DNA of 64,000 bases from GCF_058153355.1 NZ_CM177019.1, one strand, 5' to 3'; shown: positions 1 to 24,096, counted from the stretch's first letter. Notes: generated by a model from the sequence alone, not told the origin. Numbers and translations: made by a program.

Positions 1-509
1 GATATCACCGTCTCAGCTCCTGTATAAGCAAGGACAGCAGATTTTCATTCACTGCCCCGTTCAACCGAAGGGTGCCGTTTCTGAACGTAATCTCACAGGA
101 GATGCTGTGTATTTCCGGTGTTACTGACGGTCTTGCGGTCAGTGGCTCATTAGCCGGAGCAGTTGGGAGTTGGGCATCAATAGTGACAGGAATTAACTGA
201 GATTCTCTGCCTGATTCTGATGATGGCAATTTTATCTTCCCCTGCCGCCATTTCTGACGCCATTTGAACAACAGATTGGCATTAATACCATTGTCCAGGG
301 CCAGTCTGGAAATTGAAACACCTGGCTGGAATGATGCTTCTATGAGTCGTTGTTTGAATTCAGGAGGATAATTCAGGCACCCTTTAGGCCTTCCCGGAGA
401 GGCATTTTTTTGTATATCTGACATTTTTATCACCCACTATTAATTTAGTGGTGGATACTTTGTCCAAAGCATCGGGAATTTGCCAGACGGTCCTGATAAG
501 ACGCTTACG
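1..509 (-). mobile_element. IS66-family insertion sequence, partial (continues beyond window start); putative terminal inverted repeat ends near 509
   Basis: tnpA-like ORF at 5..433; a GTG overlapping the tnpA stop at the window edge begins a second ORF (V-I-S..., tnpB-like overlap arrangement); minus-strand sequence at 503..509 reads GTAAGCG, the GTAA terminus typical of IS66-family inverted repeats. Confidence 0.4.
5..433 (-). CDS. IS66-family transposase accessory protein TnpA (orf1-like, HTH)
   Basis: 142-aa ORF; motif PEFKQRLIEASFQPGVSISRLALDNGINANLLFKWRQKWRQG matches the HTH_Tnp_1 pattern of IS66 orf1 proteins. Confidence 0.55.
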   Translation of the reverse strand: MIKMSDIQKNASPGRPKGCLNYPPEFKQRLIEASFQPGVSISRLALDNGINANLLFKWRQKWRQGKIKLPSSESGRESQLIPVTIDAQLPTAPANEPLTARPSVTPEIHSISCEITFRNGTLRLNGAVNENLLSLLIQELRR

Positions 510-1244
510 CTAATGACGCTTATTGTCACGCAGAAAAATGAATTGAATTTATTCAGGAAAAAGCATGGTGCTCGTGTCCAGGGGGATGGTTTTTTTGCCC
601 GCTGTCTGTGGTCTGTAACTACATCAACGCAGGGTATAAGAGCTCATCAACCTGATGTCCACGTAGATACCAGCGTTCTGGATAAATTTAACAAACGAGT
701 CGAGGAATTACTTGAACAAACGCTTGCCGGAACCACTCCCAGCGTTCTGCGCTTTTCTGTGGAAGCGGAACATCGCTTTGCTCAATATCAGAATGAAATT
801 GAGCAAAGAATATTAACAGAGAAAGGAGGGCATGAAGCACTGCCGGGAATTTTATCAAAGCTACCTGAGAATGCGGTAAGGCTGGCAGCATTAATGCACT
901 TTTTTTATGAATTTAAGGGTGATGAGATTGATGTAGCAACACTAAACTATATTTTTATGATTATGGAATATTATTACCAACAAGCAGTCAATATTTTGAC
1001 TGCCAGCCTGAGTTCCGATGAGGAGGACGCTAAAAGACTCTGGGAGTGGTTAATGACAGGCCATTTCTCGACGTCTACCTCAGTCGCGAAGTCAGAGATA
1101 AGACGTTATGCGCCCTACCAGCTGCGTGATGTAGTCCGCTATAACAAAGCGTTAAAATATCTTGAGGATATTGGTAGGATATATATAAAAAAGTACAAAA
1201 ACGGTAACGGTACTGTCAGTCAAGTGATTGATATCAATCGTTAA
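480..1244 (+). CDS. hypothetical protein, probably N-terminally truncated by the IS66-like element (possibly a DUF3987/YfjI-like C-terminal fragment)
   Basis: 254-aa ORF whose first codons lie inside the putative IS terminus; no recognisable catalytic motif. Confidence 0.3.
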   Translation: MPDGPDKTLTLMTLIVTQKNELNLFRKKHGARVQGDGFFARCLWSVTTSTQGIRAHQPDVHVDTSVLDKFNKRVEELLEQTLAGTTPSVLRFSVEAEHRFAQYQNEIEQRILTEKGGHEALPGILSKLPENAVRLAALMHFFYEFKGDEIDVATLNYIFMIMEYYYQQAVNILTASLSSDEEDAKRLWEWLMTGHFSTSTSVAKSEIRRYAPYQLRDVVRYNKALKYLEDIGRIYIKKYKNGNGTVSQVIDINR

Positions 1245-1301
1245 TGTAAGATATGCATAACTACTCCTCTGCTTTTCCTGCTCCGAAGAGCAGAAATCGC
1301 A

Positions 1302-1311
1302 GGGGGGGGGG
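1302..1311. repeat. G10 homopolymer tract in an intergenic region
   Basis: direct read: a followed by ten g at 1302..1311. Confidence 0.9.
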
Positions 1312-1508
1312 ATTGCCTGAAAATTTTCCTGCATGAAAAGCACACTTTGTATCCGTATAGGAAAAACCAGACGACAACAGTGTAAACCTTACGGTTAACA
1401 TTTTAACCCAGGTCTGACGACTGTCAGGTTCGTGCTGATGCTTTTTATTTTCTGTGAAGCAGAATGCTTTGCTGAATGACATTTTGAGTTTCTGTATTAC
1501 AGGAGTGA

Positions 1509-1790
1509 TTGATGATTAGGTGCCACCTGAACAGACTGATGGGTGAACGCAGATTAAAGGTTGCCGATGTGGTCCGCGATACCGGTCTTCCGCGTAGCAC
1601 TGTCACAGCGCTCTGGAAAGATAACGCCACCCGGATTGAGTTGCCAGTGCTAAGCATTCTCTGTCATTATTTTAATTGTGATGTCAGTGAGTTACTGGAG
1701 TTTACTTCTGATGAAAGTCACGTTGAGTTATCTCGTCCAGGAAAAGGTTTAAATAATTTTTCACATCGTGTCTGGTTTATGCGTAAATAA
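1509..1790 (+). CDS. small XRE/Cro-like helix-turn-helix protein
   Basis: 93-aa ORF; LKVADVVRDTGLPRSTVTALW ... DVSELLEF resembles XRE-family HTH. Confidence 0.4.
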   Translation: MMIRCHLNRLMGERRLKVADVVRDTGLPRSTVTALWKDNATRIELPVLSILCHYFNCDVSELLEFTSDESHVELSRPGKGLNNFSHRVWFMRK

Positions 1791-1886
1791 GACAAAATCA
1801 TTAGTGGGTTGTATTTTAATGTTAATGATTTTGTCATTATTAATTTTAGATTTGTTGCTTTTTACCAAAGTTTTGTTTATTCATAG

Positions 1887-2606
1887 CTACCATTTTAAAT
1901 AATTACAAGCAGCAGTGTCTGCTCTATATGAACAGTTTATTTTAGCTGCTTCGTAGCCGATTAAACCTATAATGGGGTTATTGTTCTCATTGTCGTTGTA
2001 AATATCTTTTAGGAGGTTATCTCCTTGTTGGCTGGCCCAGCTCTGAGAGTCATTATTAAAATCATAATAATATTTTGCTGAGAGCAGTTGGACGGGTTGC
2101 TCGGTATCTGGCAAAACGCTCCAGATAATAATTTGCTTAACTCTGATGATTTCATTTTCAGCCTGTTTTTTAGCTGCGCTTAAACCTTCTTTCAATTTTG
2201 AATTGTCTGGTTCTTTCTTAAAACAATAAGGATCACTTCCATTGGCGACACAGGCCTCATTGTATTGGTCTATAGAGCGCTTTGCGCTTTCTATCAAACT
2301 GGCGTAGCCATTAGCAAACCGAGTCATTTCCCTTTTCCAAATGCTATTTGTTGCAGATGCCGACATATCACACGTATAAGTAACAGTCTGGTGTCCTTGT
2401 TCATCGGTTCCATCTTCCCATTTAAACAATTCACATCGCTGGCGATGCTCTAATGCAGTCCCAAGGGTTCTGGTTGAGTCTATATTTGATAATACCTGTG
2501 ATTTTATAATTTCCTGATTGTCTGAAGCGGATACATTATCACAGCCAGTAAGAATAAATATTGAGCAACTGATAAACAATCCAATAAGTACTTTTCTTTT
2601 AGACAT
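1887..2606 (-). CDS. hypothetical lipoprotein
   Basis: 239-aa ORF; N-terminal signal peptide with lipobox LTGC. Confidence 0.5.
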   Translation of the reverse strand: MSKRKVLIGLFISCSIFILTGCDNVSASDNQEIIKSQVLSNIDSTRTLGTALEHRQRCELFKWEDGTDEQGHQTVTYTCDMSASATNSIWKREMTRFANGYASLIESAKRSIDQYNEACVANGSDPYCFKKEPDNSKLKEGLSAAKKQAENEIIRVKQIIIWSVLPDTEQPVQLLSAKYYYDFNNDSQSWASQQGDNLLKDIYNDNENNNPIIGLIGYEAAKINCSYRADTAACNYLKW

Positions 2607-2682
2607 GAGTGATTCCTTTTTAAGTTTTGGTAAATTACGTGACCTTGACTAAATCAGGTCTGATAAGATGGTTAATCTGGTT

Positions 2683-3153
2683 TTAATGAATGAAGGGCAT
2701 ATGTTCGATGCCTGTATAAAGTAAATTGCTCCTGGCATTGATCGTATTGGTCAGACAGGCGTGACTTTCAATTTCTTTACCCATAGAGTTCATGACACTG
2801 ATATGAGCATCAGGCTGACCTTTGTACTCTTCATAAGTGATAGCCATAGCGCCTTCTATATTCTCTCCAGTTCCTCGCAATACAAAGACTCTATTGTCAG
2901 TAACATCATTTGCGGTGATGGACTGCTGCGCTTGACCTGAATGAGTATTCAGTTTGATGACTACGCTGCCTTTATCAGAACTTTTATCCTGTGATTTATA
3001 GGTAATATATACGATGTCTTTTTTATGACTCAGTGTCATAACCCCACCAGTATCAAGTGTGCATTTTAGATCCCAGTTTTCCTGACCAGCCAGTGAAGAA
3101 CTGCTTAACAACATTAGTATATAAAAAGATGCTTTTATTTTTACAATATTCAT
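2683..3153 (-). CDS. hypothetical secreted protein
   Basis: 156-aa ORF with hydrophobic N-terminal signal sequence ending ...SSLAGQ. Confidence 0.45.
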   Translation of the reverse strand: MNIVKIKASFYILMLLSSSSLAGQENWDLKCTLDTGGVMTLSHKKDIVYITYKSQDKSSDKGSVVIKLNTHSGQAQQSITANDVTDNRVFVLRGTGENIEGAMAITYEEYKGQPDAHISVMNSMGKEIESHACLTNTINARSNLLYTGIEHMPFIH

Positions 3154-3189
3154 ATAGCCTGCTGATTAAGTGGGGCGACTATTCTTAAT

Positions 3190-3945
3190 TTATGAAGCTG
3201 CTCCTCTATTAATACTCTTTATCTGATGAGCAATATTTTTATATGAACGATGATTAGCCGAGTTCATTACATCATGGATATAAGGAAAATGAGGTAAGGA
3301 TGAGATGAACCGCTCACCCGCAGTGAGATGGCAGATGTCATCTCTGCGCACAAAACTCTCTGTGGTTAACTTCACCTGGATGATGCTGGCTACTGGAATA
3401 ACCCTGATTATTTCGGCCTGACAGGCAACTAAATACCATTTTCCTTCCGTGTGAATAAGACGATAAGGTTCAAAGACCGCGTGAGAATCATTGCCAGTCA
3501 GCAAATGAATACAGTTTTGTTGACAGATCGCCTGTATCAGCCGCTGAAAACATTCTGATGATACAACCGAGTCAGAATGCGATGAAGACCAGATAAGGCA
3601 GGGAGAATACGACGTTTCACCCGTGAGGTAATGCATCAACCTGCGATCAGGTGACGGAAATAATTGAGAGATTCCGGTGTTACGCATAAACGCCAGAACA
3701 TCTAATGAACTGTCTGTAAAGCGTTTCCCGTCAAGTCGCCAGCGCCCATTCTCACTAACGATATTAAGGTGGAGTAATCGCTGGTGGAAATCTCGCTGTA
3801 GCGTTCGTTCAGATACTCCAAACTCTTCTGCCAGGTTTTTTAGGTCAAGAGACTCTCCTGACAGTAACCGGCTAATAATCTGTGTCAGCCTGATGGCAAA
3901 CCGGTCATAACGAGTCGATGTAGTGTTCATCAGAAAAACGTCCAT
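3190..3945 (-). CDS. WYL-domain transcriptional regulator (YfjR/BrxR-like); start codon uncertain (ORF extends to 4068)
   Basis: motif EPYRLIHTEGKWYLVACQ (WYL signature) plus N-terminal HTH-like region LKNLAEEFGVSERTLQRD. Confidence 0.55.
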   Translation of the reverse strand: MDVFLMNTTSTRYDRFAIRLTQIISRLLSGESLDLKNLAEEFGVSERTLQRDFHQRLLHLNIVSENGRWRLDGKRFTDSSLDVLAFMRNTGISQLFPSPDRRLMHYLTGETSYSPCLIWSSSHSDSVVSSECFQRLIQAICQQNCIHLLTGNDSHAVFEPYRLIHTEGKWYLVACQAEIIRVIPVASIIQVKLTTESFVRRDDICHLTAGERFISSLPHFPYIHDVMNSANHRSYKNIAHQIKSINRGAAS

Positions 3946-4166
3946 GGATAACTTACTGTTTTTAATGATGTTATTATGAATCATGAGCACGACAGGATAT
4001 GTCGTAGTAACGGGAGGAATAGAGAAAAAACGTCCAGACAAATAACTAAGTAATATCCTGATTAACAATAACTATTTTTTCCAGAGACAGAACTGAAGCA
4101 GGTCGCGACATATCCTGTCGCTGAAACTCATAATTTTCAGGTGGCTTAACTCAGTGGGTAGATGTA

Positions 4167-5051
4167 TTAGAAAAACCAGTGCCATATTGCGGTAGCTGCA
4201 TTCTCCAGCCCTTCTCTGAGCACTCCCAACCCGTTGCGTATCATGTTGGGGAGAGGTATGGCCTCCAGAATCCTGCTCAATAATTCTCCCAACAAATCCG
4301 CGAAATCCTTTCGGGCCTTCGTCTCCGATTCTTTGGTGCGATGTTCTTTCCTGATCTGGCGAAAGACGCCACTGGTAGCCTCTGGTGGCAGGGCAAAAAT
4401 CATTGTTTCAACTATACGAGACATGTTGTAACCGGTTTTTGCTGAAACAGCATGCACCGGGTAAGGGGTAAAGAACTGGCGGGAAACGGCAGCACTTCTC
4501 GCTGTGAGCGTCATGAGTTGCTTCACTGAAGGAGATCCTTTTTCACGATCCCATTCCAGTGATGGCTCGGCTTTGTCAGCCTGGTTGATAACAAAAACAA
4601 TGCTGTCTGTCGATACGCCACAATCCAGTAGAAAACGGTGGAATTCTTCGTCTGTGGTACAGGCGCGGTCATCGGCTTTCATCACCCAGAGAATGAGATC
4701 CAGCTTCGGTAACTGTTCCTGATACATCTGGCGATATATCTCATCATGCTTCAGCGATTCACCTGCGCCCGGCAGATCGATCAGCGTCAGGCTGCGTCCT
4801 CCAGCGTTCAGGGTAAAATGCAAAGGTTTACGTGTGCAGCCTTCTGCATGGCTGACTGGGCTGAGAGGATGTTCAAAAAGAGCATTGCAAAGCGAGGATT
4901 TTCCGGCACCTGTTTTGCCCATGATGCCAATCACGGGTTCGTAATGAATACTCTGGCGTATATGCTCCAGAACCAAATCGGAGATATGTTCAGGAAGAAT
5001 GGATAAAGGTTGCTTCAGGACATTAATGCCCCGTTCAAAGGAATCAGACAT
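4167..5051 (-). CDS. YfjP/YkfA-family GTPase (P-loop GTP-binding protein)
   Basis: G1 motif GKTGAGKSS, DLPG (G3-like) and NQADK (G4 NKxD-like); GGAGG RBS upstream of the ATG at 5051; ORF extends to 5105. Confidence 0.6.
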   Translation of the reverse strand: MSDSFERGINVLKQPLSILPEHISDLVLEHIRQSIHYEPVIGIMGKTGAGKSSLCNALFEHPLSPVSHAEGCTRKPLHFTLNAGGRSLTLIDLPGAGESLKHDEIYRQMYQEQLPKLDLILWVMKADDRACTTDEEFHRFLLDCGVSTDSIVFVINQADKAEPSLEWDREKGSPSVKQLMTLTARSAAVSRQFFTPYPVHAVSAKTGYNMSRIVETMIFALPPEATSGVFRQIRKEHRTKESETKARKDFADLLGELLSRILEAIPLPNMIRNGLGVLREGLENAATAIWHWFF

Positions 5052-5215
5052 GTAGCCTCCGGAATGAAAAAATTCGATACAGCAACTTCGCTGCAATGTA
5101 TTCATTGCGGTAATACAGGTCTGTTTTTTTTTGCATTCGAATTACGGGGAGGAATGTGGTTTTGTGGAGCAAACCGGGGGCATTGCCCCGGTTCACTGAT
5201 ATGGTGAAATGATAT

Positions 5216-5455
5216 CTAACGTCGCATTACCCATTCATTCAGTTCTGACTCCAGCCAGCCAACGGATTGCCTTCCCAAGCGTTTTTGTTTTGGAAATGTT
5301 CCATCGTAGCGTGGCGATTTTGGATTAAGCCAGTCGTATATGGTTGAGCGTGAAATTCCCATTTTTTTCATTACATCTTTTAGCCTCAAGATCCTCGGTG
5401 AATCAGGAATATTTGCGTAACTGGATGTATGTAAGGAGGGAGGGTTCTGTAACAT
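5216..5455 (-). CDS. alpA: AlpA-family phage regulatory protein (HTH)
   Basis: 79-aa ORF; ISRSTIYDWLNPKSPRYDGTFPK matches the AlpA signature of P4/CP4-57-type elements. Confidence 0.65.
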   Translation of the reverse strand: MLQNPPSLHTSSYANIPDSPRILRLKDVMKKMGISRSTIYDWLNPKSPRYDGTFPKQKRLGRQSVGWLESELNEWVMRR

Positions 5456-5568
5456 CTAGGCTTCCTTAGTATGAGTTTGTTCGGGTGGGTCCATATTGCC
5501 AACCACGCTGGGGCTGTCATACACTGGAAGTAACATTAAAATAAAATCACTTTAGGGATTTACTTTTC

Positions 5569-6450
5569 ATGAAGGATGTGGGTGCGAATTTTTTTGATGA
5601 TTTCTATCTGCAAGTTTGTACCGCTTGTGAGGACAAACTTCTTGAGCTGGAATGGAAACTTGAAGTCGAAAAAAAGGAGAGCAACCAAGATGTTCTGCGC
5701 ACTTACAGGCAAAGAGCCTATGATAAAATTGAAGAATTTAAAATTATTGAGTATTCAAAAATACAATGTCAATATTTTGTAGATATGACTAATAGCGACA
5801 ATATACGCTACTCACAAGAGTTTATAAATGTTGATGGAATAATGGTTGAGAAACCTTTTATTTATAAGGAAACATATGCAGAATATCGGATTGAAATTCG
5901 AGGAAAAATGGACGGGTATAAACTGACAGGATTAGCAAGACTATATGATGCACATTATGAATATATATATCTATCTATGGCTTTAGAAGATTTTTACTGG
6001 GCGCAGTTCCAATATTCATTGGGCAATAAAAAAGAAAGTTGTAAGTTTCTTCTTGATGCTTATTCTTATATGAATGTCTGTATTTCGCGAGATGATAACC
6101 GAGACTCACCGAGTTTTCATCGATTAAGAAGTGGTTTTGATAAAGTATGCAGAAGAGCGCGCTCAAGCGCTGGAGGGAAAAATAAACTTGCAGAACTTGA
6201 ATATATTAAAGATACAGTTGTTATCTTACTTGAAGATATTCCTTCACATAGCGACTGGAAAAATAAACGTCAACTTCTTGAATATTTAATGCCCTATATT
6301 TGTAATAATGATAAAAAGGTCAATCCAGATAAATGGATAAATGATACAGGCGATAGAGAGGAAACTATCCGCCGCAGACTTAATAAATGGTTTACAGGTG
6401 ATCTAAAAGTAGAGATTGATAAAGTCCTAAAGAACAATACTAACAATTAA
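5569..6450 (+). CDS. hypothetical protein, AT-rich orphan
   Basis: 293-aa ORF, strongly AT-rich codon usage, transcribed divergently from alpA; no recognisable motif. Confidence 0.5.
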   Translation: MKDVGANFFDDFYLQVCTACEDKLLELEWKLEVEKKESNQDVLRTYRQRAYDKIEEFKIIEYSKIQCQYFVDMTNSDNIRYSQEFINVDGIMVEKPFIYKETYAEYRIEIRGKMDGYKLTGLARLYDAHYEYIYLSMALEDFYWAQFQYSLGNKKESCKFLLDAYSYMNVCISRDDNRDSPSFHRLRSGFDKVCRRARSSAGGKNKLAELEYIKDTVVILLEDIPSHSDWKNKRQLLEYLMPYICNNDKKVNPDKWINDTGDREETIRRRLNKWFTGDLKVEIDKVLKNNTNN

Positions 6451-6681
6451 TATTATTATGGTTTTGATATTTTTATGTCTATCAGGAGGGCTACTATACG
6501 ATCAGTCTTGATGGGTTTGAAATTACATCGCTATGAAAATACCCCACATAAATCTATTGGAAAACCAATCATTGTTAATATGACTATTGTTATGATGACT
6601 GTTGTAATTGTGTCTACACGAGAAATTGAATGAAATTTATAGGTTTGAAGTAGCCTTAGTGGTAGTCGAAAATAATTATGT

Positions 6682-6713
6682 AAATGGGCCTGCATTTTGC
6701 AAGAAGGCCCATT
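6682..6713. terminator. hairpin between convergent genes (aaatgggcc ... ggcccattt)
   Basis: 9-bp inverted repeat read directly. Confidence 0.3.
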
Positions 6714-6717
6714 TACG

Positions 6718-7047
6718 TCAGGGGTAAATTATATATCCCATAATCGCACAGATTAACCGGTAATCACTCACGTAGAAGATTTCCGGATTCTCAGTGCTTT
6801 GTTCACCGATAAAGAAGACTTGAGCTCTCTCTTTAGCTTTTTTATTTACTGCTTCTTTTGCTTCTTCCTGCACAGTTTCAAGCTCATTCAAAAGCATAGT
6901 CTTTTTGGCTTTTGACCAGTCTCCCCACTCAATGTGTAGTTTATAGCTACGCGAGGGCTTAAACTTACCAGATTCGTCTTTTGCCCATTCTCCCGAGAGC
7001 GGAATGACAATTCGGTTTTCGTCTTGCTCAAATTTCTGCCATAACAA
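6718..7047 (-). CDS. hypothetical protein (109 aa)
   Basis: ORF co-directional with and downstream of the STAND gene; no motif recognised. Confidence 0.4.
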   Translation of the reverse strand: MLWQKFEQDENRIVIPLSGEWAKDESGKFKPSRSYKLHIEWGDWSKAKKTMLLNELETVQEEAKEAVNKKAKERAQVFFIGEQSTENPEIFYVSDYRLICAIMGYIIYP

Positions 7048-7094
7048 CTGCGAATAAAAAACTCGGCGCTCAGGGTAGGGTTGAACCGGGTCTT

Positions 7095-7628: not shown

Positions 7629-7673
7629 GATTTCTCCTTTAAACAGAATTCCTGTGAAGGCGGCTACTAGCCT

Positions 7674-10600: not shown

Positions 10601-11525
10601 CATGGAGTTCTGATGGGCAATTATCAAGGATCATAATTGCTCGTCGGCCTTCAGCGAGCAGGTTATCAAGCATTGCTGTAGCCGACGGTACTGGCTCATA
10701 GCCAGTATCAACATAAATAGCTACTGTCCGGTCAAGCGCATCTGTTCCAACAGTATCATCAAAGAGCGCCTGAACGATTCGAGTCTTCCCAACACCAGAC
10801 AATCCTGTAATACGAACAGCCTTATTCGTCGAACGGATCAGTGCTCGCATTGGGTTAATTGCTTCATCAATTTTGAGTTTTTGCCCCTTTCCCGATGGTA
10901 AAGTAATGGTTACGCTTGGGGCTGAGATTAAAGTGTCTGTAACACCTTGTGGTGGATTGCTCCAGGCTCCGTAGGGTTGCCAACCGGAATACCCTTGCCC
11001 AAGCTTTGCTTTTACCCACAGCATGACTGATGGATGTTGGCGCAACCATTGGATGAGTTTGGAGCGGTCGTAGAAATCAAGATGAAGATAACTTTCGTTA
11101 GGATCATCTTTTACTGCATCTCTCATCGCTTTGAGACGATTCTTCTTTCCTGACGGCGAGCAATCATCACCCAGGCTGACAATGATGTAACTGCCTTGCT
11201 TTCTGGCTTGTTCAGAAATGATGGGAGAAAGTGCTTTTCCGGTGCCAATTTCCCTCTCGATTGCAGCCTTAGGCATCTTATGTTTCTTTGCCTGAAAGAC
11301 CGTATCAGGTCTTACAAGAAAGCCTGCTTTCAGTTGATCAACTGGAACCTGAACATGGATGTCAATTCCTCCGTCAGGGGCTGTAATTGAACCAGACCAA
11401 TTTACACATGCTGGGCTATGGCCGTGCATTGCCACTTCAGCTTCTGCTAGCCGAGCGATCAGCTCTTCCAACTGGATATCGGAGAGCCGAAGTAATTCGT
11501 CCTTTTCAATGTCAAAGATTGCCAC
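7674..11525 (-). CDS. Mrr-like (PD-(D/E)xK) nuclease / STAND P-loop NTPase / long helical C-terminal domain protein; Avs-like antiphage candidate
   Basis: 1283-aa ORF; N-terminal DGGID (residues 51-55) ... QAK (78-80) resembles the Mrr catalytic core; Walker A GLSGVGKT encoded at 10782..10805; Walker B-like AIMILDN; GNARVALAIA resembles the GxP motif of STAND NTPases. Confidence 0.7.
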   Translation of the reverse strand: MAIFDIEKDELLRLSDIQLEELIARLAEAEVAMHGHSPACVNWSGSITAPDGGIDIHVQVPVDQLKAGFLVRPDTVFQAKKHKMPKAAIEREIGTGKALSPIISEQARKQGSYIIVSLGDDCSPSGKKNRLKAMRDAVKDDPNESYLHLDFYDRSKLIQWLRQHPSVMLWVKAKLGQGYSGWQPYGAWSNPPQGVTDTLISAPSVTITLPSGKGQKLKIDEAINPMRALIRSTNKAVRITGLSGVGKTRIVQALFDDTVGTDALDRTVAIYVDTGYEPVPSATAMLDNLLAEGRRAIMILDNCPSELHASLASKVSAAGKEVSLITIEYDIRDDKPQTTEVIHIETDGPEVAEQLLIRRFPSIGQNNARRIAKFADGNARVALAIAERVEEGESLALLSDAQLFNRLFEQRNHPDGHLREQAEILSLVYSFSISSSDAATDELEILGALSGYPKIQLFKTVTKLMERHVVQKRSHWRAILPHAIANKLAASALNSIPIDQLRTTFEAPDRQRLLMSFAHRLGLLHSHAVAKEIVEAWLQPEGLLGKIIDLDDVSTRILNYVAPVAPGALLERIEETLVTSNFEHFKSRYNPQRTAIIKLLQLLAYESKYFERCIKLLIRIADQESASNNYDSARNKIKRFFQPYLSGTHASLEQRVAVMDECIGSSMAGRRRLGLEMLETALGGPPWTGFGINEFGARPRDYGFRPSYDELVEWLITFIDIVVRLATSRVPELEDDARLILANKFRWIWRQEGMRSKLIDAARKLHAHRPWGEGWKAVRSTIYFSHTKRNDNEDLAPLPEGLVTLERELEPNDLVPAVMAYVLSKGRDFWALNADFEREGPNKFIKIKEILNAKAFQLGQDFAVSTHELDELGPNLFLRDGMPYRVEFGKGLAKGAPDLRVYWQKLITQMNLQHKSQSDFSVIRGFIEETNSIDKALAQELLDQCAQHSELRFELVNLHPWQEFTEIDLDRCMSLLDDSDIRPHMYGAILWGEQFSNLPESRVLELAQRLLSKPNGDEVVLEALSMKLPDKGDATDTLGLALRTIGLSAAIQRFQRDHNDLGGYLDYAMERVIDATLRFDGNEAEKLEWLNTIFAVVDEHFGYIFSFEDAIGITAAWMPKEFLSRIFDGTEDQQQRRLHFINHDDSHQSPIAKIDVDILIEWCGTTKDPQVWASVASGINLWSKDGEQSPICLQDDALRFLEASPEPRAVLEIFAEHVAPSSWSGSRANVMQPRVEAIGRLVTHERADISKSARAVYKKLTNWVEKEKERERLEDEALEQRFE

Positions 11526-11972
11526 ATCCTAACCCTATTAAAGATACTGCGACTATATAAAAAGTTACCCTTATTCTAACCAATGACAGAAGGAATGTCC
11601 CTTAAACCGTTGCAATTAAAACCATTCTCATCAAGTAGTTAAGATTTTCTTACTCAGCACTATGATGTTGATCTTACCCACTTTGCGTCAAACTATTAGT
11701 ATGTATAAAGCACATTGCTGGCCTGATTAAGAAATGGATTGATATGTGAGTTAATGTCATTTATGAGCTTAAAGCTATTTTTAATCCCCTTTGCTTTACA
11801 ACTCTTTATATTATTTCATTCTTATTTACACCAATATTTATTGGTATGATGGTTTAATTTAATTCATTTTTGTTTTTTTGTTTGAAGCACATTGAAAGGA
11901 TATTATTATTTTCTCCTTCATGTTGAAAACAATTTAATTGGGCGGGTTTGGTTCGATATTATTAATATCTTT

Positions 11973-12000
11973 TTCAAAGAAATTATTTATATGGTATAAT
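11973..12000 (+). promoter_or_regulatory. putative sigma70 promoter with extended -10 (ttcaaa ... tggtataat)
   Basis: -35-like ttcaaa at 11973..11978, 16-bp spacer, TGnTATAAT at 11992..12000, within a long AT-rich tract upstream of the nuclease-helicase gene. Confidence 0.3.
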
Positions 12001-12032
12001 GCAATAAAATCGTATTGAGGTAAGAGGGTACT

Positions 12033-12227
12033 ATGAGTGGATCTTTTGATTTCTTAGCTGGTTCTTTGGCTCTTGAAAATAAACCTTTCCATATGCAGGT
12101 TGCAGAGCTAATAAAAAATAAGTTTCGTCATTGTGAGGGATATATTGGCTATAAGCTTGCAACTTTGGGACGGGCATCGGACTCCGATGTTCCAGATTTT
12201 ATCATTATACAAAAGAACATGGCATAA
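12033..12227 (+). pseudogene. 5' portion of nuclease-helicase gene (NERD/PD-(D/E)xK-like N-terminus), separated from the helicase frame by an apparent -1 frameshift
   Basis: 64-aa ORF with RBS gaggtaagaggg; ends ...SDVPDFIIIQKNMA; adding one A to the A4 run at 12211..12214 gives DFIIIQKEHGIILVDMVESK, continuous with the helicase ORF. Confidence 0.45.
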
Positions 12228-12238
12228 TTTTAGTTGAC

Positions 12239-14248
12239 ATGGTTGAAAGTAAGGTTTCTCGTGCGGATGAGGTGCAGGGGAATGAGGTTTGGTATTATGA
12301 GCATGGAGGTTCGAGTGTAGCAAGGAATTTTATTGTCGAGTTGTATGAGGAGGAGGTAAGAAGTAGATTAAAAAACGATGCAAATTTCTACAACAGAAGA
12401 AAAAAAACATGCACAGTTCCGATTACTAGCGCTGTTATTTTTTGTAAAAATAATAATAGTGAGATAGACAATTTCTATCAAGAGTATGCTGATTATGAAA
12501 GTTCAGCTATTGAATATGGCGAGATTGAGAATTGGTTAGATAGCGTTGAAGAAGGGTTCAATTGCGATTCTAAAGTTCTGGGGCGAATTTTTTCATTGTT
12601 AGAGGGGACGTTTATATATGAAAATAAAAAAATTCTCGATGAAGAACCACCCCTTAACACTGTGAATGATTATATCAAAAAATCTCTAAATATAACATTT
12701 AATCAAGATCACTCACAACGTATTGCTTCAATGCAACTAACCCCGGGCCCTCAGAGAATTCGTGGCTTGGCCGGAACAGGTAAGACGATAGTTCTTTCAT
12801 TAAAAGCTGCGATAACGCACAAAAAATTTCCAGATTATAAAATATTATATTTATTTAATACACAAAGCTTATATCAAAATGTGCAGAGTTCAATCGCCAG
12901 ATACTATACTTTAGAAGCCAAAAAAGCGCCAGATTTTGAATCGAATCTAAATGTCTTCCATGCGTGGGGTGGTAGGCAGAAACCGGGACTGTATTCATAT
13001 ATTTGCCAACAGTATGGATTAACTCCACTAACATTAGGAGATGTACGTGGAGCAAGTGATGCCTTAGCTGTCATATATGCAGAACTTCTCAAAAAAATCG
13101 GTGGTGATATAAAGCCTGAATATGATCTTATTTTAATAGATGAAGCCCAAGATTTTCCTAAAGAGTTGTTTGAAGTGGTCTTTAAACTAGCAAAGGGCAA
13201 ACCTCATGAGAAAAGGATCGTTTGGGCGTATGATGAATTCCAGTCATTGAAAGACACTCAAATTAAAGGTCCATCTGAGCTATTTGGTTTGGCCAAAGAT
13301 GGCACCCCAAATATGAGTGATGATGTTTTAGATGGATTCTATCCTGGTGACATAAAAAAAGATATTGTTTTATCCAATTGCTATAGGACTCCTCGTCCTG
13401 CTCTTATGACTGCTCACGGAGTAGCATTAGGACTTTATACTAATAAGCCGAATGAAATGTTTTATAACCATGATGAATGGAAAGCTATTGGCTATAAAGT
13501 TTTAAATCCTCAGACAAAAATCATTGCAAAAGGCAATGATGTGCAAATAGAGAGACCTAATGAAAATAGTCTAAATCTGTTGGAAGGAATTATGACAGAG
13601 CAGGGTAAGAGGGCCCTTAACCTTATCCAGACTAAGGTGGAAAATGATCGGGAAAGTCAATATGAATATATTGCAAGTAACATCAAACGTTTAATTGATG
13701 AGGAAAATGTCTCGCCTGAAGAAATAGTCATAATTAATTTGAAGTCCTCTAGTAACAAAGATGAGATGCTACGCATTCAATTCATCTTAAATAATTACGG
13801 TATTCACTCTGTAATTCCCGGTTACGTTGAAAGCTCAGATGTCTTTAAACCCAAGGGGTTCGTTACAATCACAACCCCTTTCAGGGCTAAAGGGAATGAA
13901 GCTAATATTGTATTTATTTTAAATAGCCAGTTAGTTGTTAATGATTTTTCATTAAGGATGCGTAATGCATTTTTTGTAGCAGTAACTCGAACAAGAGGAT
14001 GGTGTTATATTGTTGGTTATGGAGAAAAAATGCAAATGCTTGTGGACGAAATTTCAGGAATCAAAAGAGATTTCCCTATATTTAATTTCATTTGTCCTGA
14101 CCCTGATGATGTCAAAGCACGAAAAAGTTATCTCCACAAATCAGACTCTGAGATCAATGAGATGCAAAGAGTACTGGATTTAGTTAATAATAACGAAGAG
14201 TTAAGACGACTGCTACAGGAGCAGCTCATTGATAAGAAAGGAGATTAA
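12239..14248 (+). CDS. SF1 helicase (UvrD/RecD-like), probable C-terminal body of a nuclease-helicase fusion
   Basis: 669-aa ORF; Walker A GLAGTGKT at 12764..12787; Walker B LILIDEAQDF; FVAVTRTRGW motif VI-like. Confidence 0.7.
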   Translation: MVESKVSRADEVQGNEVWYYEHGGSSVARNFIVELYEEEVRSRLKNDANFYNRRKKTCTVPITSAVIFCKNNNSEIDNFYQEYADYESSAIEYGEIENWLDSVEEGFNCDSKVLGRIFSLLEGTFIYENKKILDEEPPLNTVNDYIKKSLNITFNQDHSQRIASMQLTPGPQRIRGLAGTGKTIVLSLKAAITHKKFPDYKILYLFNTQSLYQNVQSSIARYYTLEAKKAPDFESNLNVFHAWGGRQKPGLYSYICQQYGLTPLTLGDVRGASDALAVIYAELLKKIGGDIKPEYDLILIDEAQDFPKELFEVVFKLAKGKPHEKRIVWAYDEFQSLKDTQIKGPSELFGLAKDGTPNMSDDVLDGFYPGDIKKDIVLSNCYRTPRPALMTAHGVALGLYTNKPNEMFYNHDEWKAIGYKVLNPQTKIIAKGNDVQIERPNENSLNLLEGIMTEQGKRALNLIQTKVENDRESQYEYIASNIKRLIDEENVSPEEIVIINLKSSSNKDEMLRIQFILNNYGIHSVIPGYVESSDVFKPKGFVTITTPFRAKGNEANIVFILNSQLVVNDFSLRMRNAFFVAVTRTRGWCYIVGYGEKMQMLVDEISGIKRDFPIFNFICPDPDDVKARKSYLHKSDSEINEMQRVLDLVNNNEELRRLLQEQLIDKKGD

Positions 14249-14250
14249 AA

Positions 14251-14922
14251 TTGAATTTCTCATTAGTGCAGCAAAGCTTAAACCATGTCGAAGCACTTTT
14301 AAAACCTGTAACTCAACAAAAATTAATAGAGTTTAAAGAAAGAGAGAAGGTCATAAGTTGGACAAATAGGAAGCCAGGAATTTACAATGAAGTCTACTAT
14401 CCTATTGAATATCAATGTGTAATTGATGCAAGGCAGTACTCATTATTGCTTCGAGATGGCGATTTTTTTCAATTTTTTTATGAGTTTGATGCGAAAACTG
14501 GCAATCTGAAGAAAGCTAAGTTGGCTTTCTATCCCTCACCAATTGATTGTAGAAATTCGTTGGATGATCTCAATGAAGCAGCTGAATTTGCTTTTGATCA
14601 TAATGAAGAACTCTATAATCATCTTGATAATTGGATTTCGCTATTGGAAATAAAAAACTATTTTCCAGCAAATACATCTCAAGTTAGATTTGATTATGAT
14701 AGTACGGTTACTACACATGAGAAAGCACATCTGCAGTTTAGTAGTGTAAATAAACTTAGACTTCCGGCTGACTTTTTTCCTTTGCCATATGCATTTGTAT
14801 TAATGGTTTCTGATCTTATTAATGGATGCTCAAAGGTAGATGCTAGACATATAAGCTTTACTAAGAGAAACAGCCTAAGATCAAATGTTTCTAATAGAAT
14901 CATAACCTTGAAATCACAGTGA
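14251..14922 (+). CDS. hypothetical protein, helicase-coupled partner (223 aa)
   Basis: TTG start 3 bp after the helicase stop, AGGAG RBS 7 nt upstream; AT-rich; no motif recognised. Confidence 0.5.
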   Translation: MNFSLVQQSLNHVEALLKPVTQQKLIEFKEREKVISWTNRKPGIYNEVYYPIEYQCVIDARQYSLLLRDGDFFQFFYEFDAKTGNLKKAKLAFYPSPIDCRNSLDDLNEAAEFAFDHNEELYNHLDNWISLLEIKNYFPANTSQVRFDYDSTVTTHEKAHLQFSSVNKLRLPADFFPLPYAFVLMVSDLINGCSKVDARHISFTKRNSLRSNVSNRIITLKSQ

Positions 14923-14928
14923 ATTAAC

Positions 14929-14962
14929 AAGCCTCTTTTATAAGGATATAAGAGGCTTGTTA
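14929..14962. terminator. bidirectional hairpin terminator (aacaagcctctt ... aagaggcttgtt)
   Basis: perfect 12-bp inverted repeat between the convergent partner gene and integrase. Confidence 0.45.
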
Positions 14963-15372
14963 TTATTTCGCTAAATCTGATCACTGTCGAGAATTGATTG
15001 ATTTTTTGTGATTATTTATTCCATTCTGAGTTCATTGCCGATTTTATATGTATGTATTTTGTATCGGCTTATCTTGGCTTATTAAGTCTAGCATCACACA
15101 ATGCTTTTCAGGAAATCATCTTACCTATTAACCATATTATTACCGGCCCAACATTTCTCGCATTTACAGCTGGTAGCTCCTGTGTGTAAACGCTATTAAT
15201 CTCATACTCATTGGTTTAATATTAACTTTGAACTTCTGGAGTGCAGATCACCAATCCTAATATTACTACTAAATAGCTGCGCCTAATAACGCGACACCCG
15301 CCGTTTACTGTCTGGTGGCTTAACCTGCAAGGGCTGGCTGAAAGTGGGACACTATTCCGCGCAGCTATTTAG

Positions 15373-16614
15373 TCACCCAACTAGCTTCATTCCTTTTATC
15401 CCACCTTCAATCATGCTTCCACGATCCGCTGCCATCACAAAATTTGCCCACCATTGCATCATCGGGCGACGCTGTTCCAGGTAATCGCTGCGGTTATAAG
15501 CACGACGAACCTCATTCTTATCCACATGGGCCAATGCTGCCTCAATGACATCAGGCGGAAAGCCTTGTTCATTAAGAGCCGTACTGGCAATTGATCTCAG
15601 ACCATGCGAAACAAGCACACCACCAAAACCTGCGCGTTTTAGTGAGGCGTTAACAGTCTGACTGTTCATTGGCTGGTTGGGCTTGATACGGCTGGGAAAG
15701 ATAAATTCTCGGTTGCCGCTTAGCGGTTTCATCATCTCCAGCACAGCTATTGCTTCATCTGACAATGGAACAGTATGATCGCGGTTCATTTTCATGCGTG
15801 CTGCAGGAATCTTCCACTCTCGCGCTTCTATGTCTACCTCTTCCCAGCGAGCTTCAGCCGCTTCGGCAGGGCGGGTAATAGTAAGAAGTTGCCACATGAA
15901 CAGGCAGCGTGTGGAAAGGCTAATGCTGGCTGTTCGCATTGTCTGCATCAATTGAGGTAGCTGATCCGGTCGAATGCTGGGCATGTTCTTTTTCTGAGGC
16001 TTCTCGAAGGCTTTACCGATATTAACGCTGGGAACAGCATCAATCAGCCCTGTGTTTTGGGCATAGATCATGACCTCATTAATGCGCTGACACAGGCGAC
16101 GAACGGTTTCCAGTGCTCCTCTGGCCTGAACTGGTTGGACGGCCTGAACCAGTGTGTGTGCTTTAATATCTGTAACGCTAATGTCGCCAATTGCAGGAAA
16201 GACATCTCTCTCAAGAGAGCGCCAGATATCCTCTGCGTAGTCTTCGGTCACACTGGCTTTCTTCACATTCCACCAACGTTCAGCCACGAGCTGGAAAGTA
16301 TTGGTTTTAGCTTCCAGCGAACTGCGAAGTTGTTCTTGTTGATGTTCCTGGGGATCAATTTGTTTCGCCAGAAGAGAGCGGGACTCTGCCCGATAGTTTC
16401 GGGCATCGGCAAGGGTAACTGACGGGTAGGGGCCTATGCTCTTCTTCGCACGTTTCTTAGTGACAGGGCGAATGTAGCGAAACTGCCAGATTTTACTTCC
16501 GCTGGATTTGATGAGTAGCTCAAGGCCATCACCATCATAGAGAACGTAGTCCGCTTCTTTGGGTTTGGCGGATTCGATTTCTTTAACGGATAGAGGTTTG
16601 GTTTGTCTTGCCAT
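15373..16614 (-). CDS. intA: P4-type tyrosine integrase (IntA-like) next to ssrA
   Basis: 413-aa ORF; C-terminal catalytic region with HGLRS ... EAALAH ... RAY pattern; position immediately 5' of the tmRNA 3' end. Confidence 0.85.
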   Translation of the reverse strand: MARQTKPLSVKEIESAKPKEADYVLYDGDGLELLIKSSGSKIWQFRYIRPVTKKRAKKSIGPYPSVTLADARNYRAESRSLLAKQIDPQEHQQEQLRSSLEAKTNTFQLVAERWWNVKKASVTEDYAEDIWRSLERDVFPAIGDISVTDIKAHTLVQAVQPVQARGALETVRRLCQRINEVMIYAQNTGLIDAVPSVNIGKAFEKPQKKNMPSIRPDQLPQLMQTMRTASISLSTRCLFMWQLLTITRPAEAAEARWEEVDIEAREWKIPAARMKMNRDHTVPLSDEAIAVLEMMKPLSGNREFIFPSRIKPNQPMNSQTVNASLKRAGFGGVLVSHGLRSIASTALNEQGFPPDVIEAALAHVDKNEVRRAYNRSDYLEQRRPMMQWWANFVMAADRGSMIEGGIKGMKLVG

Positions 16615-16818
16615 TGCCGGGTTTCCATAGTTTTAGGCACCTCAAAAACAATAAAGCTTTATGAGGTGCCTAACAAGGTGCCTAAAAGGTTCGGATTTAA
16701 TTAGTTCTCTTCGGACTTCGCGGGACAAATTGAGGGCACAAAAAAGCCCGCAGGGCTTGCGCCGTGCGGACTCTTAGGACTTCATCGGATGACTCTGGTA
16801 ATCACCGATGGAGAATTT

Positions 16819-17181
16819 TGGTGGAGCTGGCGGGAGTTGAACCCGCGTCCGAAATTCCTACATCCTCGGTACTACATGCTTAGTCAGTCTTTACATTCGC
16901 TTGCCAGCTGCGGACGGACACGCCACTAACAAACTAGCCTGATTAAGTTTTAACGCTTCAACCCCAGGCAGGGCTTCCACGCGATCTCTTTTGGGTTTGA
17001 CCTCTCTTGATCCCCGTCCTAAGAGCGGAGGCTAGGGAGAGAGGGCTCTAAGCAGGTTATTAAGCTGCTAAAGCGTAGTTTTCGTCGTTTGCGACTATTT
17101 TTTGCGGCTTTTTACGAGGCCAACCGCCCCTCGGCATGCACCTTGGGTTTCGCAAATCCCGTCGAATCCAGAATCAGCCCC
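16819..17181 (-). ncRNA. ssrA: tmRNA (SsrA)
   Basis: reverse complement begins GGGGCTGATTCTGGATTCGACGGG and ends ...GTTCAACTCCCGCCAGCTCCACCA; tag-encoding region present. Confidence 0.92.
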
Positions 17182-17395
17182 AATGTGTAACGGTAAGTAT
17201 ACCAGATTCATGAGTGCCATGACCAGCATCAATGGCGTTATCGTTAAAGATTTAGCACCCATGTAGCCTGATTTTTATTCGATTAAGCAATGGGATGGCA
17301 ACATTTGTGCCGGATGTGATAGCCAATAAGATGTTCATTCGCGCCGCCGGAGAGGGGGGCGCGGTGAGGAACTGGTCAATAATTGGAGTGCAGAT

Positions 17396-17878: not shown

Positions 17879-18009
17879 AAGCGTCGTGAATCATCGGTAA
17901 TCTGAAATCGAAAACACCCCATATCAATCCTGCGGGGGACAAGGCTCTATCTTAGCATGAACCCGATGTTACCCAGCGCCGGGATAGCGTTTTTTTTACA
18001 GCAGGATAA

Positions 18010-18766: not shown

Positions 18767-18781
18767 CAGACAGAAAAAGGT

Positions 18782-18792
18782 GCTCATTGAGC
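18782..18792. repeat. IS4 target-site duplication, left copy (gctcattgagc)
   Basis: identical 11-mer at 20219..20229. Confidence 0.7.
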
Positions 18793-20218: not shown

Positions 20219-20229
20219 GCTCATTGAGC
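20219..20229. repeat. IS4 target-site duplication, right copy (gctcattgagc)
   Basis: identical to 18782..18792. Confidence 0.7.

Positions 20230-22500: not shown

Positions 22501-24096
<1,596 letters not shown>

What the first reader, a model, noticed from the sequence alone, without database searches (positions are those of the whole stretch)
1..17181. Window opens inside an ssrA-integrated island with a cargo different from K-12 CP4-57
Seen: a P4-type integrase (15373..16614) abuts the 3' end of tmRNA (16819..17181). Everything to the left is visibly AT-rich compared with the core to the right, and encodes the STAND protein, the helicase pair, regulators and orphans rather than K-12 CP4-57 genes such as rnlAB or yfjK. 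Established: ssrA is a hotspot for P4-like integrative elements. Inference: this is a strain-specific defence island; its distal boundary is outside the window.
Basis: partly seen in the sequence, partly recalled or inferred. Interest (0 to 1): 0.6.

Follow-up and report, generated by a model that had tools for sequence, protein, structure and literature searches.

The report
Decaying ssrA defence island, known systems
The first 16.8 kb of the window is the tmRNA-proximal part of a CP4-57-type integrative island in E. coli that carries two already described anti-phage systems, Avs8/PD-lambda-4 and helicase+DUF2290, in a rare combination and partly broken by frameshifts and an IS element, so it is an ordinary example of a known defence hotspot.

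Summary
A complete tmRNA gene lies at 16819..17181 (-). A full-length IntA-type integrase lies 204 bp away at 15373..16614 (-). DNA to its left is 41.4% GC against 50.8% for the core.

This is a horizontally acquired, strain-restricted defence island whose far end lies outside the window.

- **Backbone:** it is still CP4-57-like, with homologues of intA (84.5% aa), alpA (64%), yfjP, yfjR, yfjI and yfjH.
- **Cargo:** abpAB (yfjLK) and rnlAB are absent. Two published systems sit between int and the yfjH/alpA pair.
  - Avs8/PD-lambda-4 is a STAND NTPase that senses HK97-fold capsid protein. Its avs8A is intact and 94% identical to the characterised ECOR07 protein.
  - The second system is the Rousset "helicase+DUF2290" anti-T7 system.
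- **Decay:** there is a 1-nt deletion in avs8B, a 1-nt deletion in the helicase, and an IS66-family element inside yfjI at the window edge.
- **Rarity:** the Avs8 locus occurs in 131 of 5426 complete E. coli genomes. The helicase-DUF2290 module occurs in 1.
- **Mosaicism:** the island has sharp module breakpoints at 11709/11710 and at the int stop codon.

Nothing here is categorically new, so interest is low.

The parts
1..508 (-). End of an IS66-family insertion sequence (accessory gene tnpA at 5..433, -). The terminal repeat ends ...GTAAGCG at 502..508 as read on the - strand. The rest of the IS lies outside the window.
   Evidence: NCBIfam IS66-like TnpA at 88.8 bits against a cut-off of 74. 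PHROG transposase. Homology to the uninterrupted islands of FEX669 and R32_14_1F starts exactly at 509. Sequence read.
509..1244 (+). 3' part of a yfjI-like (DUF3987, P4 alpha-like) gene, truncated by the IS66 insertion.
   Evidence: 99.6% aa identity to the C-terminal 244 aa of the 470-aa YfjI-family protein of R32_14_1F, and 26-28% to K-12 YfjI. PF13148 DUF3987 on the same ORF in L006.
1509..1790 (+). Small XRE/HTH_26 transcriptional regulator (backbone gene).
   Evidence: PF13443 HTH_26. PHROG transcriptional regulator. 100% identical in R32_14_1F.
1887..3153 (-). Two exported proteins of unknown function. The 239-aa protein has a lipoprotein-type signal (LTGC). The 156-aa protein has a signal peptide. 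Both are backbone genes.
   Evidence: Translations. No hit in PADLOC, NCBIfam or PHROGs. Conserved in FEX669 and R32_14_1F.
3190..3930 (-). YfjR-like HTH/WYL transcriptional regulator.
   Evidence: PADLOC WYL model, E 1e-17. 38.6% aa identity to K-12 YfjR.
4167..5051 (-). YfjP-like GTPase.
   Evidence: NCBIfam small_GTP domain at 44.9 bits against a cut-off of 42.5. PF01926. 42% aa identity to K-12 YfjP.
5216..5455 (-). AlpA-like excisionase / activator of int; intact.
   Evidence: 64.4% aa identity to K-12 AlpA. PF05930 Phage_AlpA. PHROG excisionase and transcriptional regulator.
5569..6450 (+). YfjH-like protein (293 aa, unknown function), divergent from alpA as in K-12.
   Evidence: Weak similarity to K-12 YfjH, 26.8% over 127 aa, E 7e-5. 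Same position relative to alpA as in K-12.
6718..7628 (-). avs8B (PD-Lambda-4_B) pseudogene, split into 177-aa and 109-aa ORFs by a 1-nt deletion at about 7104.
   Evidence: The intact 303-aa orthologue of FEX669 matches PADLOC PD-Lambda-4_B at 653 bits over 1-303/303. The deletion (AAA to AA) was located. The same split is seen in two independent draft assemblies.
7674..11525 (-). avs8A (PD-Lambda-4_A), intact, 1283 aa. It has an N-terminal Mrr-like nuclease motif, a STAND P-loop NTPase (Walker A GLSGVGKT at aa 241-248) and a C-terminal repeat sensor. A divergent tract spans aa ~700-1000 (window ~8500-9500).
   Evidence: PADLOC at 2499.9 bits over 1-1283/1283. 94.1% aa identity to WP_000963924.1, the ECOR07 Avs8A characterised in bioRxiv 10.1101/2025.07.02.662641.
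11710..15371 (.). Exchangeable cargo module next to int. It is 99-100% identical to FEX669. In R32_14_1F and O104:H4 a different module encoding a 1248-aa protein sits at the same place.
   Evidence: Breakpoints come from blastn against L001, L002 and L004.
12033..14248 (+). SF1 (UvrD/Schlafen-group-3-like) helicase of the helicase+DUF2290 system. It is frameshifted by a 1-nt deletion at about 12208, giving 64-aa and 669-aa ORFs where FEX669 has 738 aa.
   Evidence: For the intact orthologue: PADLOC 'Helicase' PDLC03002 at 368 bits; Pfam UvrD_C_2 at E 1.3e-8; AF2 model with pLDDT 84.8, best Foldseek matches SLFN11/14, UvrD/PcrA and Upf1. Frameshift located. The same split is seen in L005 and L006.
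14251..14922 (+). DUF2290 protein (223 aa), intact, starting 2 nt after the helicase stop.
   Evidence: Pfam PF10053 at E 5.3e-11. PADLOC DUF2290 models. 100% identical in FEX669.
15373..16614 (-). IntA-type (P4-like) tyrosine integrase, intact.
   Evidence: NCBIfam PRK09692 at 934.6 bits over 1-413/413. 84.5% aa identity to K-12 IntA.
16633..16685 (.). Three exact copies of AGGTGCCTAA (one inverted) between int and ssrA. These are inferred arm-type integrase binding sites.
   Evidence: three exact copies within 53 bp and no other exact copy in 64 kb. A GGTGCCTA pair also lies next to the attR remnant of FEX669 and R32_14_1F. The function is inferred, not tested.
16819..16833 (.). attL core, TGGTGGAGCTGGCGG, which is the last 15 nt of ssrA.
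   Evidence: K-12 annotates CP4-57 as starting 15 nt inside ssrA. Its attR duplicate psaA is TGGTGGGCTGGCGG when read in window orientation.
16819..17181 (-). ssrA (tmRNA), complete.

Best explanation
Window 1..16833 is the ssrA-proximal ~16.3 kb of a CP4-57-family integrative element, about 21 kb in its closest intact relative. It entered by IntA-type site-specific recombination into the last ~15 nt of the tmRNA gene, with AlpA as the excision and int-activating factor.

Between the integrase and the yfjH/alpA pair it carries two anti-phage systems.

1. Avs8 (PD-lambda-4). By near-identity to the characterised protein, Avs8A is expected to bind the HK97-fold major capsid protein through its C-terminal repeat sensor, oligomerise through its STAND NTPase, and switch on its N-terminal Mrr-type DNase, aborting the infection.
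2. Helicase+DUF2290, an anti-T7 system whose mechanism is unknown.

The integrase-adjacent module is exchanged among island variants by recombination, so the island is a mosaic.

In this strain the element is decaying. An IS66-family element interrupts yfjI. A 1-nt deletion truncates avs8B, which is reported to be dispensable. Another 1-nt deletion splits the helicase inside its conserved N-terminal domain, which probably inactivates the helicase+DUF2290 system. The one defence function still expected to work is Avs8A.

Shown here: identity of the parts, location, rarity, mosaicism and lesions. Inferred: activity of Avs8A, inactivity of helicase+DUF2290, and the arm-site role of AGGTGCCTAA.
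For: - Location and recombination genes.
- att core, by comparison with K-12 CP4-57 and its psaA duplicate.
- Backbone homologues of yfjH, alpA, yfjI, yfjP and yfjR.
- Avs8: PADLOC full-length match and 94% identity to WP_000963924.1, which sits at the same ssrA-int position in O104:H4.
- Published Avs8A mechanism (binds lambda gpE with KD ~127 nM, DNase activity, Avs8B dispensable): bioRxiv 10.1101/2025.07.02.662641. Independent confirmation of capsid-protein sensing: bioRxiv 10.64898/2026.01.04.697583.
- Helicase+DUF2290; described as an anti-T7 system of P4-satellite hotspots in PMC9122126.
- The tmRNA locus is E. coli defence hotspot #9: PMC10121019.
- Foreign composition.
- Rarity.
- Mosaic structure with breakpoints at 11709/11710 and 15371/15372.
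- Lesions. They are reproduced in two independent assemblies and sit in AA/AAA runs, not long homopolymers.
Against: - The far end and attR are not in the window, so completeness and excision competence cannot be judged.
- In the closest relatives attR is eroded to 8-10 nt, so the family may be largely immobile.
- Pfam does not recognise a nuclease or STAND domain in Avs8A (best hit AAA_16, E 0.019). The domain assignment therefore rests on motifs and on the literature.
- The window's Avs8A differs from every E. coli allele by ~11% of nucleotides across aa ~700-1000, so its trigger range could differ from the published one.
- A 669-aa helicase could still be translated from the ATG at 12239, so loss of function is an inference.
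Confidence: 0.85

Rival explanations
1. A fully functional two-system defence island: both Avs8 and helicase+DUF2290 are active and the apparent frameshifts are sequencing errors or are bypassed.
For: All four genes are otherwise >92% identical to intact orthologues. DUF2290 and the 669-aa helicase core ORF are intact.
Against: The same two 1-nt deletions occur in the window and in two independent assemblies, Logan SRR31441161 and GCA_015332025.1. They lie in AA/AAA runs, not in error-prone long homopolymers. The helicase break removes residues 1-69, including invariant P54, F56, G64 and D69.
Confidence: 0.08
2. A P4-like phage satellite that is mobilised by a helper phage, with the defence genes in the satellite hotspot described by Rousset et al.
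For: The integrase is P4-type, there is an AlpA homologue, YfjI is a remnant of a P4-alpha-like protein (PHROG 'DNA helicase'), and helicase+DUF2290 was first found in P4 hotspots.
Against: No psu, delta, sid or epsilon homologues were found among the window ORFs. None appear in the annotated distal parts of the relatives, which instead carry Gp2-family, DUF932, RadC, DUF987 and YeeU/CbtA genes. That is the CP4-type island backbone shared with K-12 CP4-57.
Confidence: 0.05
3. Not a mobile island: an ancestral, AT-rich but vertically inherited segment of the chromosome.
For: Flanking core genes are syntenic with other E. coli. attR in relatives is eroded.
Against: The segment is present in a small minority of genomes. 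There is a 9-point GC deficit. It has an integrase, AlpA and an att core at ssrA. It is mosaic between unrelated strains, and one copy sits in tandem with a prophage at the same att.
Confidence: 0.02

Closest known systems
E. coli K-12 cryptic prophage CP4-57 (intA-alpA element at ssrA)
   Same: The integration site is the same, the last ~15 nt of ssrA. The backbone is shared: IntA 84.5%, AlpA 64%, YfjP 42%, YfjR 39%, YfjI 26-28%, YfjH 27% aa identity. In the relatives, the distal YfjQ/RadC/DUF987/YeeU-CbtA block and the chromosomal junction at attR also match.
   Different: Gene order differs. K-12 carries its defence cargo (abpAB, rnlAB) between yfjJ and yfjP and has nothing between intA and yfjH. 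Here abpAB and rnlAB are absent, and ~8.9 kb of cargo lies between int and the yfjH-like gene. DNA identity is detectable only over int and ssrA.
Avs8 / PD-lambda-4 of E. coli ECOR07 (Vassallo et al. 2022; bioRxiv 10.1101/2025.07.02.662641; 10.64898/2026.01.04.697583)
   Same: Avs8A has the same length (1283 aa), 94% aa identity, a full-length PADLOC match, and the same genomic position next to the ssrA integrase as the identical protein in O104:H4.
   Different: A ~300-aa tract of the sensor (aa ~700-1000) holds 49 of the 76 amino-acid differences, with ~1:1 synonymous:non-synonymous codon changes. avs8B is broken at a different place, -1 at codon ~175, whereas the ECOR07/O104:H4 allele has a +1 at codon 242.
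Helicase+DUF2290 system (DefenseFinder 'Rst_Helicase+DUF2290'; Rousset et al. 2022, PMC9122126)
   Same: An SF1 helicase is directly followed by a PF10053 protein. Both match the PADLOC models. It lies next to a P4-type integrase in a variable slot.
   Different: It sits in a CP4-57-type island, not a P4 satellite. The helicase is frameshifted.
E. coli defence hotspot #9 at the tmRNA locus (Hochhauser et al. 2023, PMC10121019)
   Same: A defence-carrying mobile element integrated at tmRNA.
   Different: None in kind; this is one more occupant.

Membership tests
CP4-57-family ssrA integrative element | IntA-type tyrosine integrase adjacent to the attachment site | tested here: met
   413 aa. 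PRK09692 at 934.6 bits full length. 84.5% identity to K-12 IntA. 204 bp from ssrA.
CP4-57-family ssrA integrative element | Insertion in the 3' end of ssrA with the tmRNA gene kept complete | tested here: met
   Rfam tmRNA model positions 1-374/374. The att core TGGTGGAGCTGGCGG at 16819..16833 corresponds to the K-12 CP4-57 boundary.
CP4-57-family ssrA integrative element | AlpA excisionase/activator | tested here: met
   5216..5455 (-), 64% identity to K-12 AlpA. PF05930.
CP4-57-family ssrA integrative element | Direct repeat of the att core (attR) at the far end | not testable with these tools
   No second copy in the window. Draft contigs of the same lineage end at the IS66. In relatives the repeat is 14 nt (K-12), 10 nt (FEX669) and 8 nt (R32_14_1F).
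Avs8 / PD-lambda-4 | Avs8A: full-length homology to the characterised STAND protein | tested here: met
   PADLOC PDLC03991 at 2499.9 bits over 1-1283. 94.1% aa identity to WP_000963924.1.
Avs8 / PD-lambda-4 | P-loop NTPase Walker A and N-terminal Mrr-type nuclease motif | tested here: inconclusive
   GLSGVGKT at aa 241-248 and PDGGIDI...FQAKK at aa ~50-81 are present. Pfam gives only AAA_16 at E 0.019 and no nuclease family. No PDB relative by sequence.
Avs8 / PD-lambda-4 | Intact avs8B downstream of avs8A | tested here: not met
   A 1-nt deletion at ~7104 splits it. The gene is reported to be dispensable for lambda defence, so this does not argue against function.
Avs8 / PD-lambda-4 | Activation by HK97-fold major capsid protein and DNase activity | not testable with these tools
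   Known only from the literature for the ECOR07 allele.
Helicase+DUF2290 (Rst) | DUF2290 (PF10053) protein | tested here: met
   E 5.3e-11. PADLOC PDLC02998/02999.
Helicase+DUF2290 (Rst) | Adjacent co-oriented SF1 helicase matching the system's helicase model, with an intact reading frame | tested here: not met
   The FEX669 orthologue (98-100% identical) scores 368 bits on PDLC03002. In the window the gene is split at ~12208 into 64-aa and 669-aa ORFs. Adjacency is met, with a 2-nt gap.
Helicase+DUF2290 (Rst) | Protection against phage T7 | not testable with these tools
   Literature only. A lactococcal homologue gave no protection against the lactococcal phages tested.
P4-like phage satellite | Capsid-hijacking genes (psu, delta, sid), epsilon, cos | tested here: not met
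   No such hits among the window ORFs in PHROGs, NCBIfam or PADLOC. None are annotated in the distal parts of relatives. The unseen part of this strain's element was not tested.

The most novel reading that the evidence does not exclude
The integrase-adjacent slot of this island family, bounded by the int stop codon and a point ~185 bp upstream of avs8A, may be a discrete cassette-exchange site. If so, its uncharacterised occupants, such as the 1248-aa phrog_18693 protein of O104:H4 and R32_14_1F, would be unrecognised defence genes.

Separately, the recombined ~300-aa tract of the window's Avs8A sensor may retarget the receptor to a different set of capsid proteins. That would be a natural example of specificity switching by tract exchange in a bacterial NLR-like receptor.
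Probability: 0.25. Interest if true: 0.4.

Novelty: new member of a known kind. Interest (0 to 1): 0.2.

Why it matters
It matters little beyond cataloguing. It adds one more mosaic variant to the known tmRNA defence hotspot of E. coli.

It shows that Avs8, including the exact ECOR07 proteins used in the published work, lives in the integrase-adjacent slot of a CP4-57-type island. It also gives a clean example of module swapping with base-pair breakpoints.

Two small leads could be useful to people working on Avs8. First, the 'dispensable' Avs8B tested so far is itself a frameshifted 248-aa allele of a 303-aa protein. Second, natural Avs8A alleles differ mainly in one sensor tract.

Tried and rejected
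- **attR or any second copy of the ssrA 3' end.** Fuzzy search of 20-30-mers with up to 3 mismatches, 10-14-mer exact search in relatives and a repeat finder found nothing in the window. Relatives have only an 8-10-nt remnant.
- **Left flank outside the window.** I looked up contigs encoding the exact 239-aa lipoprotein. All contigs stop at the IS66 repeat.
- **Sequence search of the PDB** with Avs8A, the helicase and DUF2290 gave no significant hits.
- **Pfam on Avs8A** (first 1000 aa) gave no significant domain. The first attempt failed on the length limit.
- **N-terminal domain of the helicase.** An alpha-beta-beta-beta-alpha-beta arrangement and conserved VP(S/D)F...LxDxxE suggest a PD-(D/E)xK/NERD-like domain. 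However, the aspartate of 'PD' and the lysine of 'ExK' are not conserved across homologues, and the whole-model Foldseek search is dominated by the helicase core. I leave this as an unconfirmed lead.
- **Origin of the divergent Avs8A tract.** A word-indexed protein search returned only fragments at <=62% identity and not even the E. coli alleles, so it was uninformative.
- **Phase variation as an explanation of the frameshifts.** Rejected, because the deletions are in AA and AAA, not in long tracts.
- **Extra RNA genes in the island.** None were found at E <= 0.1.
- **Promoter and terminator consensus scans.** Counts were not above shuffled expectation.

Full report
**1. Observation**

ARAGORN and Rfam both place a complete tmRNA gene at 16819..17181 on the minus strand. 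The ORF at 15373..16614 (-) encodes a 413-aa tyrosine integrase. It matches NCBIfam PRK09692 over its whole length at 934.6 bits and is 84.5% identical to IntA of K-12 CP4-57. It starts 204 bp from the 3' end of ssrA.

The DNA from 509 to 16818 is 41.4% GC, against 50.8% for 17182..64000. In 1-kb windows the island averages 0.412 +/- 0.049 and the core 0.508 +/- 0.026. GC3 falls to 0.25-0.30 in the DUF2290, helicase and yfjH-like genes. The integrase gene itself is core-like at 49.6%.

**2. What the genes are**

PADLOC identifies the 1283-aa protein (7674..11525, -) as PD-Lambda-4_A over its full length, at 2499.9 bits. The gene downstream is PD-Lambda-4_B; the intact FEX669 orthologue scores 653 bits over 1-303/303.

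PD-lambda-4 has been renamed Avs8. Avs8A is a STAND NTPase with an Mrr nuclease N-terminus. It binds HK97-fold major capsid proteins directly (lambda gpE, KD ~127 nM) and then degrades DNA. Avs8B was dispensable (bioRxiv 10.1101/2025.07.02.662641). Capsid-protein sensing was found independently in bioRxiv 10.64898/2026.01.04.697583.

The accession numbers that paper gives for ECOR07 Avs8A and Avs8B (WP_000963924.1, WP_000443183.1) are exactly the CDSs beside the ssrA integrase in E. coli O104:H4. The characterised system therefore sits in this same island slot. The window's Avs8A is 94.1% identical to it. Walker A (GLSGVGKT, aa 241-248) and a PDGGIDI...FQAKK motif are present. Pfam itself sees no significant domain, and no solved relative exists by sequence.

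The second system is an SF1 helicase (12033..14248, +) followed 2 nt later by a 223-aa PF10053/DUF2290 protein (14251..14922, +). This pair is the 'helicase+DUF2290' system that Rousset et al. found in P4-satellite hotspots and showed to inhibit T7 (PMC9122126). It is catalogued as Rst_Helicase+DUF2290. Its mechanism is unknown.

- An AlphaFold model of the intact FEX669 helicase (pLDDT 84.8) resembles Schlafen group-3 helicases, UvrD/PcrA and Upf1.
- A model of DUF2290 (pLDDT 78.8) has no informative structural neighbour in the PDB.
- Both proteins have homologues across Proteobacteria.

**3. The backbone**

All 23 K-12 CP4-57 proteins were compared with the window by tblastn. Hits were intA, alpA (64%), yfjP (42%), yfjR (39%), yfjI (26%) and yfjH (27%, weak). 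There was no abpA, abpB (yfjL/yfjK), yfjM, rnlA or rnlB.

In the closest relative with an uninterrupted island, R32_14_1F, the element continues with a complete yfjI and homologues of yfjJ, yfjQ, radC/yfjY, ypjJ, yfjZ and ypjF. It ends about 21.3 kb from ssrA at the same chromosomal junction as K-12 CP4-57. So the element belongs to the CP4-57 family.

The placement of the cargo differs. K-12 has nothing between intA and yfjH and keeps abpAB and rnlAB further in. Here ~8.9 kb of defence cargo sits between int and the yfjH-like gene.

The att core is the last 15 nt of ssrA, TGGTGGAGCTGGCGG. K-12 duplicates 14 nt of it as psaA, while FEX669 and R32_14_1F keep only 10 and 8 nt. Three exact AGGTGCCTAA repeats lie between int and ssrA, and a similar pair lies near attR of the relatives. 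These are probably integrase arm sites, but that is an inference.

**4. Distribution and mosaicism**

The core of the window is ordinary E. coli, 99.1-99.5% identical to R32_14_1F over 16938..45370. Counts among 5426 complete E. coli genomes were as follows.

| Feature | Genomes | Source |
|---|---|---|
| Whole 17.2-kb stretch, >=80% covered | 1 (FEX669, in tandem with a prophage that separates it from ssrA) | |
| Avs8 locus, near full length | 131, all ~95.7% identical to the window | |
| Helicase-DUF2290 module | 1 | |
| IntA-family integrase region | 717 (253 at >=90%) | |

Identity profiles show that the window's island is a mosaic.

- 509..7000 is 99.6-100% identical to R32_14_1F.
- 11710..15371 is absent from R32_14_1F and O104:H4. 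Both carry a different module there, encoding a 1248-aa protein with no PADLOC hit that matches phrog_18693.
- 11710..15371 is 99-100% identical to FEX669.
- The breakpoints fall at 11709/11710 and at the int stop codon.
- Within avs8A, aa ~700-1000 is only ~88% identical in nucleotides to every other allele. It carries 49 of the 76 amino-acid differences, with about as many non-synonymous as synonymous codon changes.

The tmRNA locus is a documented E. coli defence hotspot, #9 in PMC10121019.

**5. Decay in this strain**

Window 1..508 is the end of an IS66-family element (TnpA at 5..433) inserted in yfjI. Compared with FEX669, the window has two single-base deletions in coding sequence.

- One at ~7104 splits avs8B.
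- One at ~12208 splits the helicase after codon ~59. It lies between the conserved VP(S/D)F and LxDxxE motifs of its N-terminal domain.

Both lie in AA/AAA runs and recur in two independent draft assemblies, so they are real. avs8A, DUF2290, int and alpA are intact.

**6. Verdict**

Two refinements apply: only the cargo, not the backbone, differs from CP4-57, and half of the defence genes are pseudogenes here. Both defence systems, the island family and the hotspot are already published. This is a new mosaic member of a known kind, of low interest.

The most novel readings left open are that the int-adjacent slot is a cassette site whose unknown occupants are new defence genes, and that the divergent Avs8A tract changes capsid specificity. 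Neither could be tested here.

Noticed in passing
L004 13952..14864 (O104:H4) versus L001 18210..19121 and L002 21209..22120: The Avs8B allele of ECOR07/O104:H4 (WP_000443183.1, 248 aa), reported as dispensable, carries a +1 A insertion at nt 724 relative to the 303-aa form in FEX669 and R32_14_1F. The tested protein therefore lacks the last ~60 residues. Most E. coli hits list three CDSs under the locus, which suggests the truncated form is the common one.
   Followed up: partly
window 8500..9500 (Avs8A aa ~700-1000): This tract of the sensor region is ~88% identical in nucleotides to all other E. coli alleles, while the rest of the gene is 97-99%. Synonymous and non-synonymous codon changes are roughly equal (51 versus 49). 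It looks like a recombined or diversifying tract.
   Followed up: partly
L002 26485..30231 and L004 19229..22975: In R32_14_1F and O104:H4 the int-adjacent slot holds a 1248-aa protein (WP_000871158.1 in O104:H4). It matches phrog_18693 (unknown function) full length and has no PADLOC or NCBIfam family. It is a candidate uncharacterised defence gene.
   Followed up: partly
window 18787..20238 and 37172..38010: A full IS4 copy (448-aa transposase ORF 18859..20205) is inserted between yfjF and bamE and is absent from R32_14_1F. A partial IS4 remnant between raiA and bamD is shared with R32_14_1F.
   Followed up: yes
L001 28314..28345 (FEX669): In FEX669 the island is separated from ssrA by a lambdoid prophage. 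A 32-nt copy of the ssrA 3' end with 1 mismatch lies at the junction, so two elements are integrated in tandem at the tmRNA site.
   Followed up: partly
window 3990..4120: A perfect 15-nt inverted repeat (CGACAGGATATGTCG / CGACATATCCTGTCG) with 101 nt between its arms lies between the yfjP-like and yfjR-like genes. It is a possible operator and was not examined further.
   Followed up: no
window 14925..14962 and 15268..15373: A 17-nt-arm hairpin lies directly after the DUF2290 stop. A 21-nt inverted repeat pair lies directly after the int stop, at the right-hand module breakpoint.
   Followed up: no
window 45391..45466: A tRNA-Glu(UUC) lies inside an rRNA operon, corresponding to the 16S-tRNA-Glu-23S-5S operon of R32_14_1F. 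Identity to R32_14_1F drops from 99.1% to 97.4% to the right of this point.
   Followed up: no
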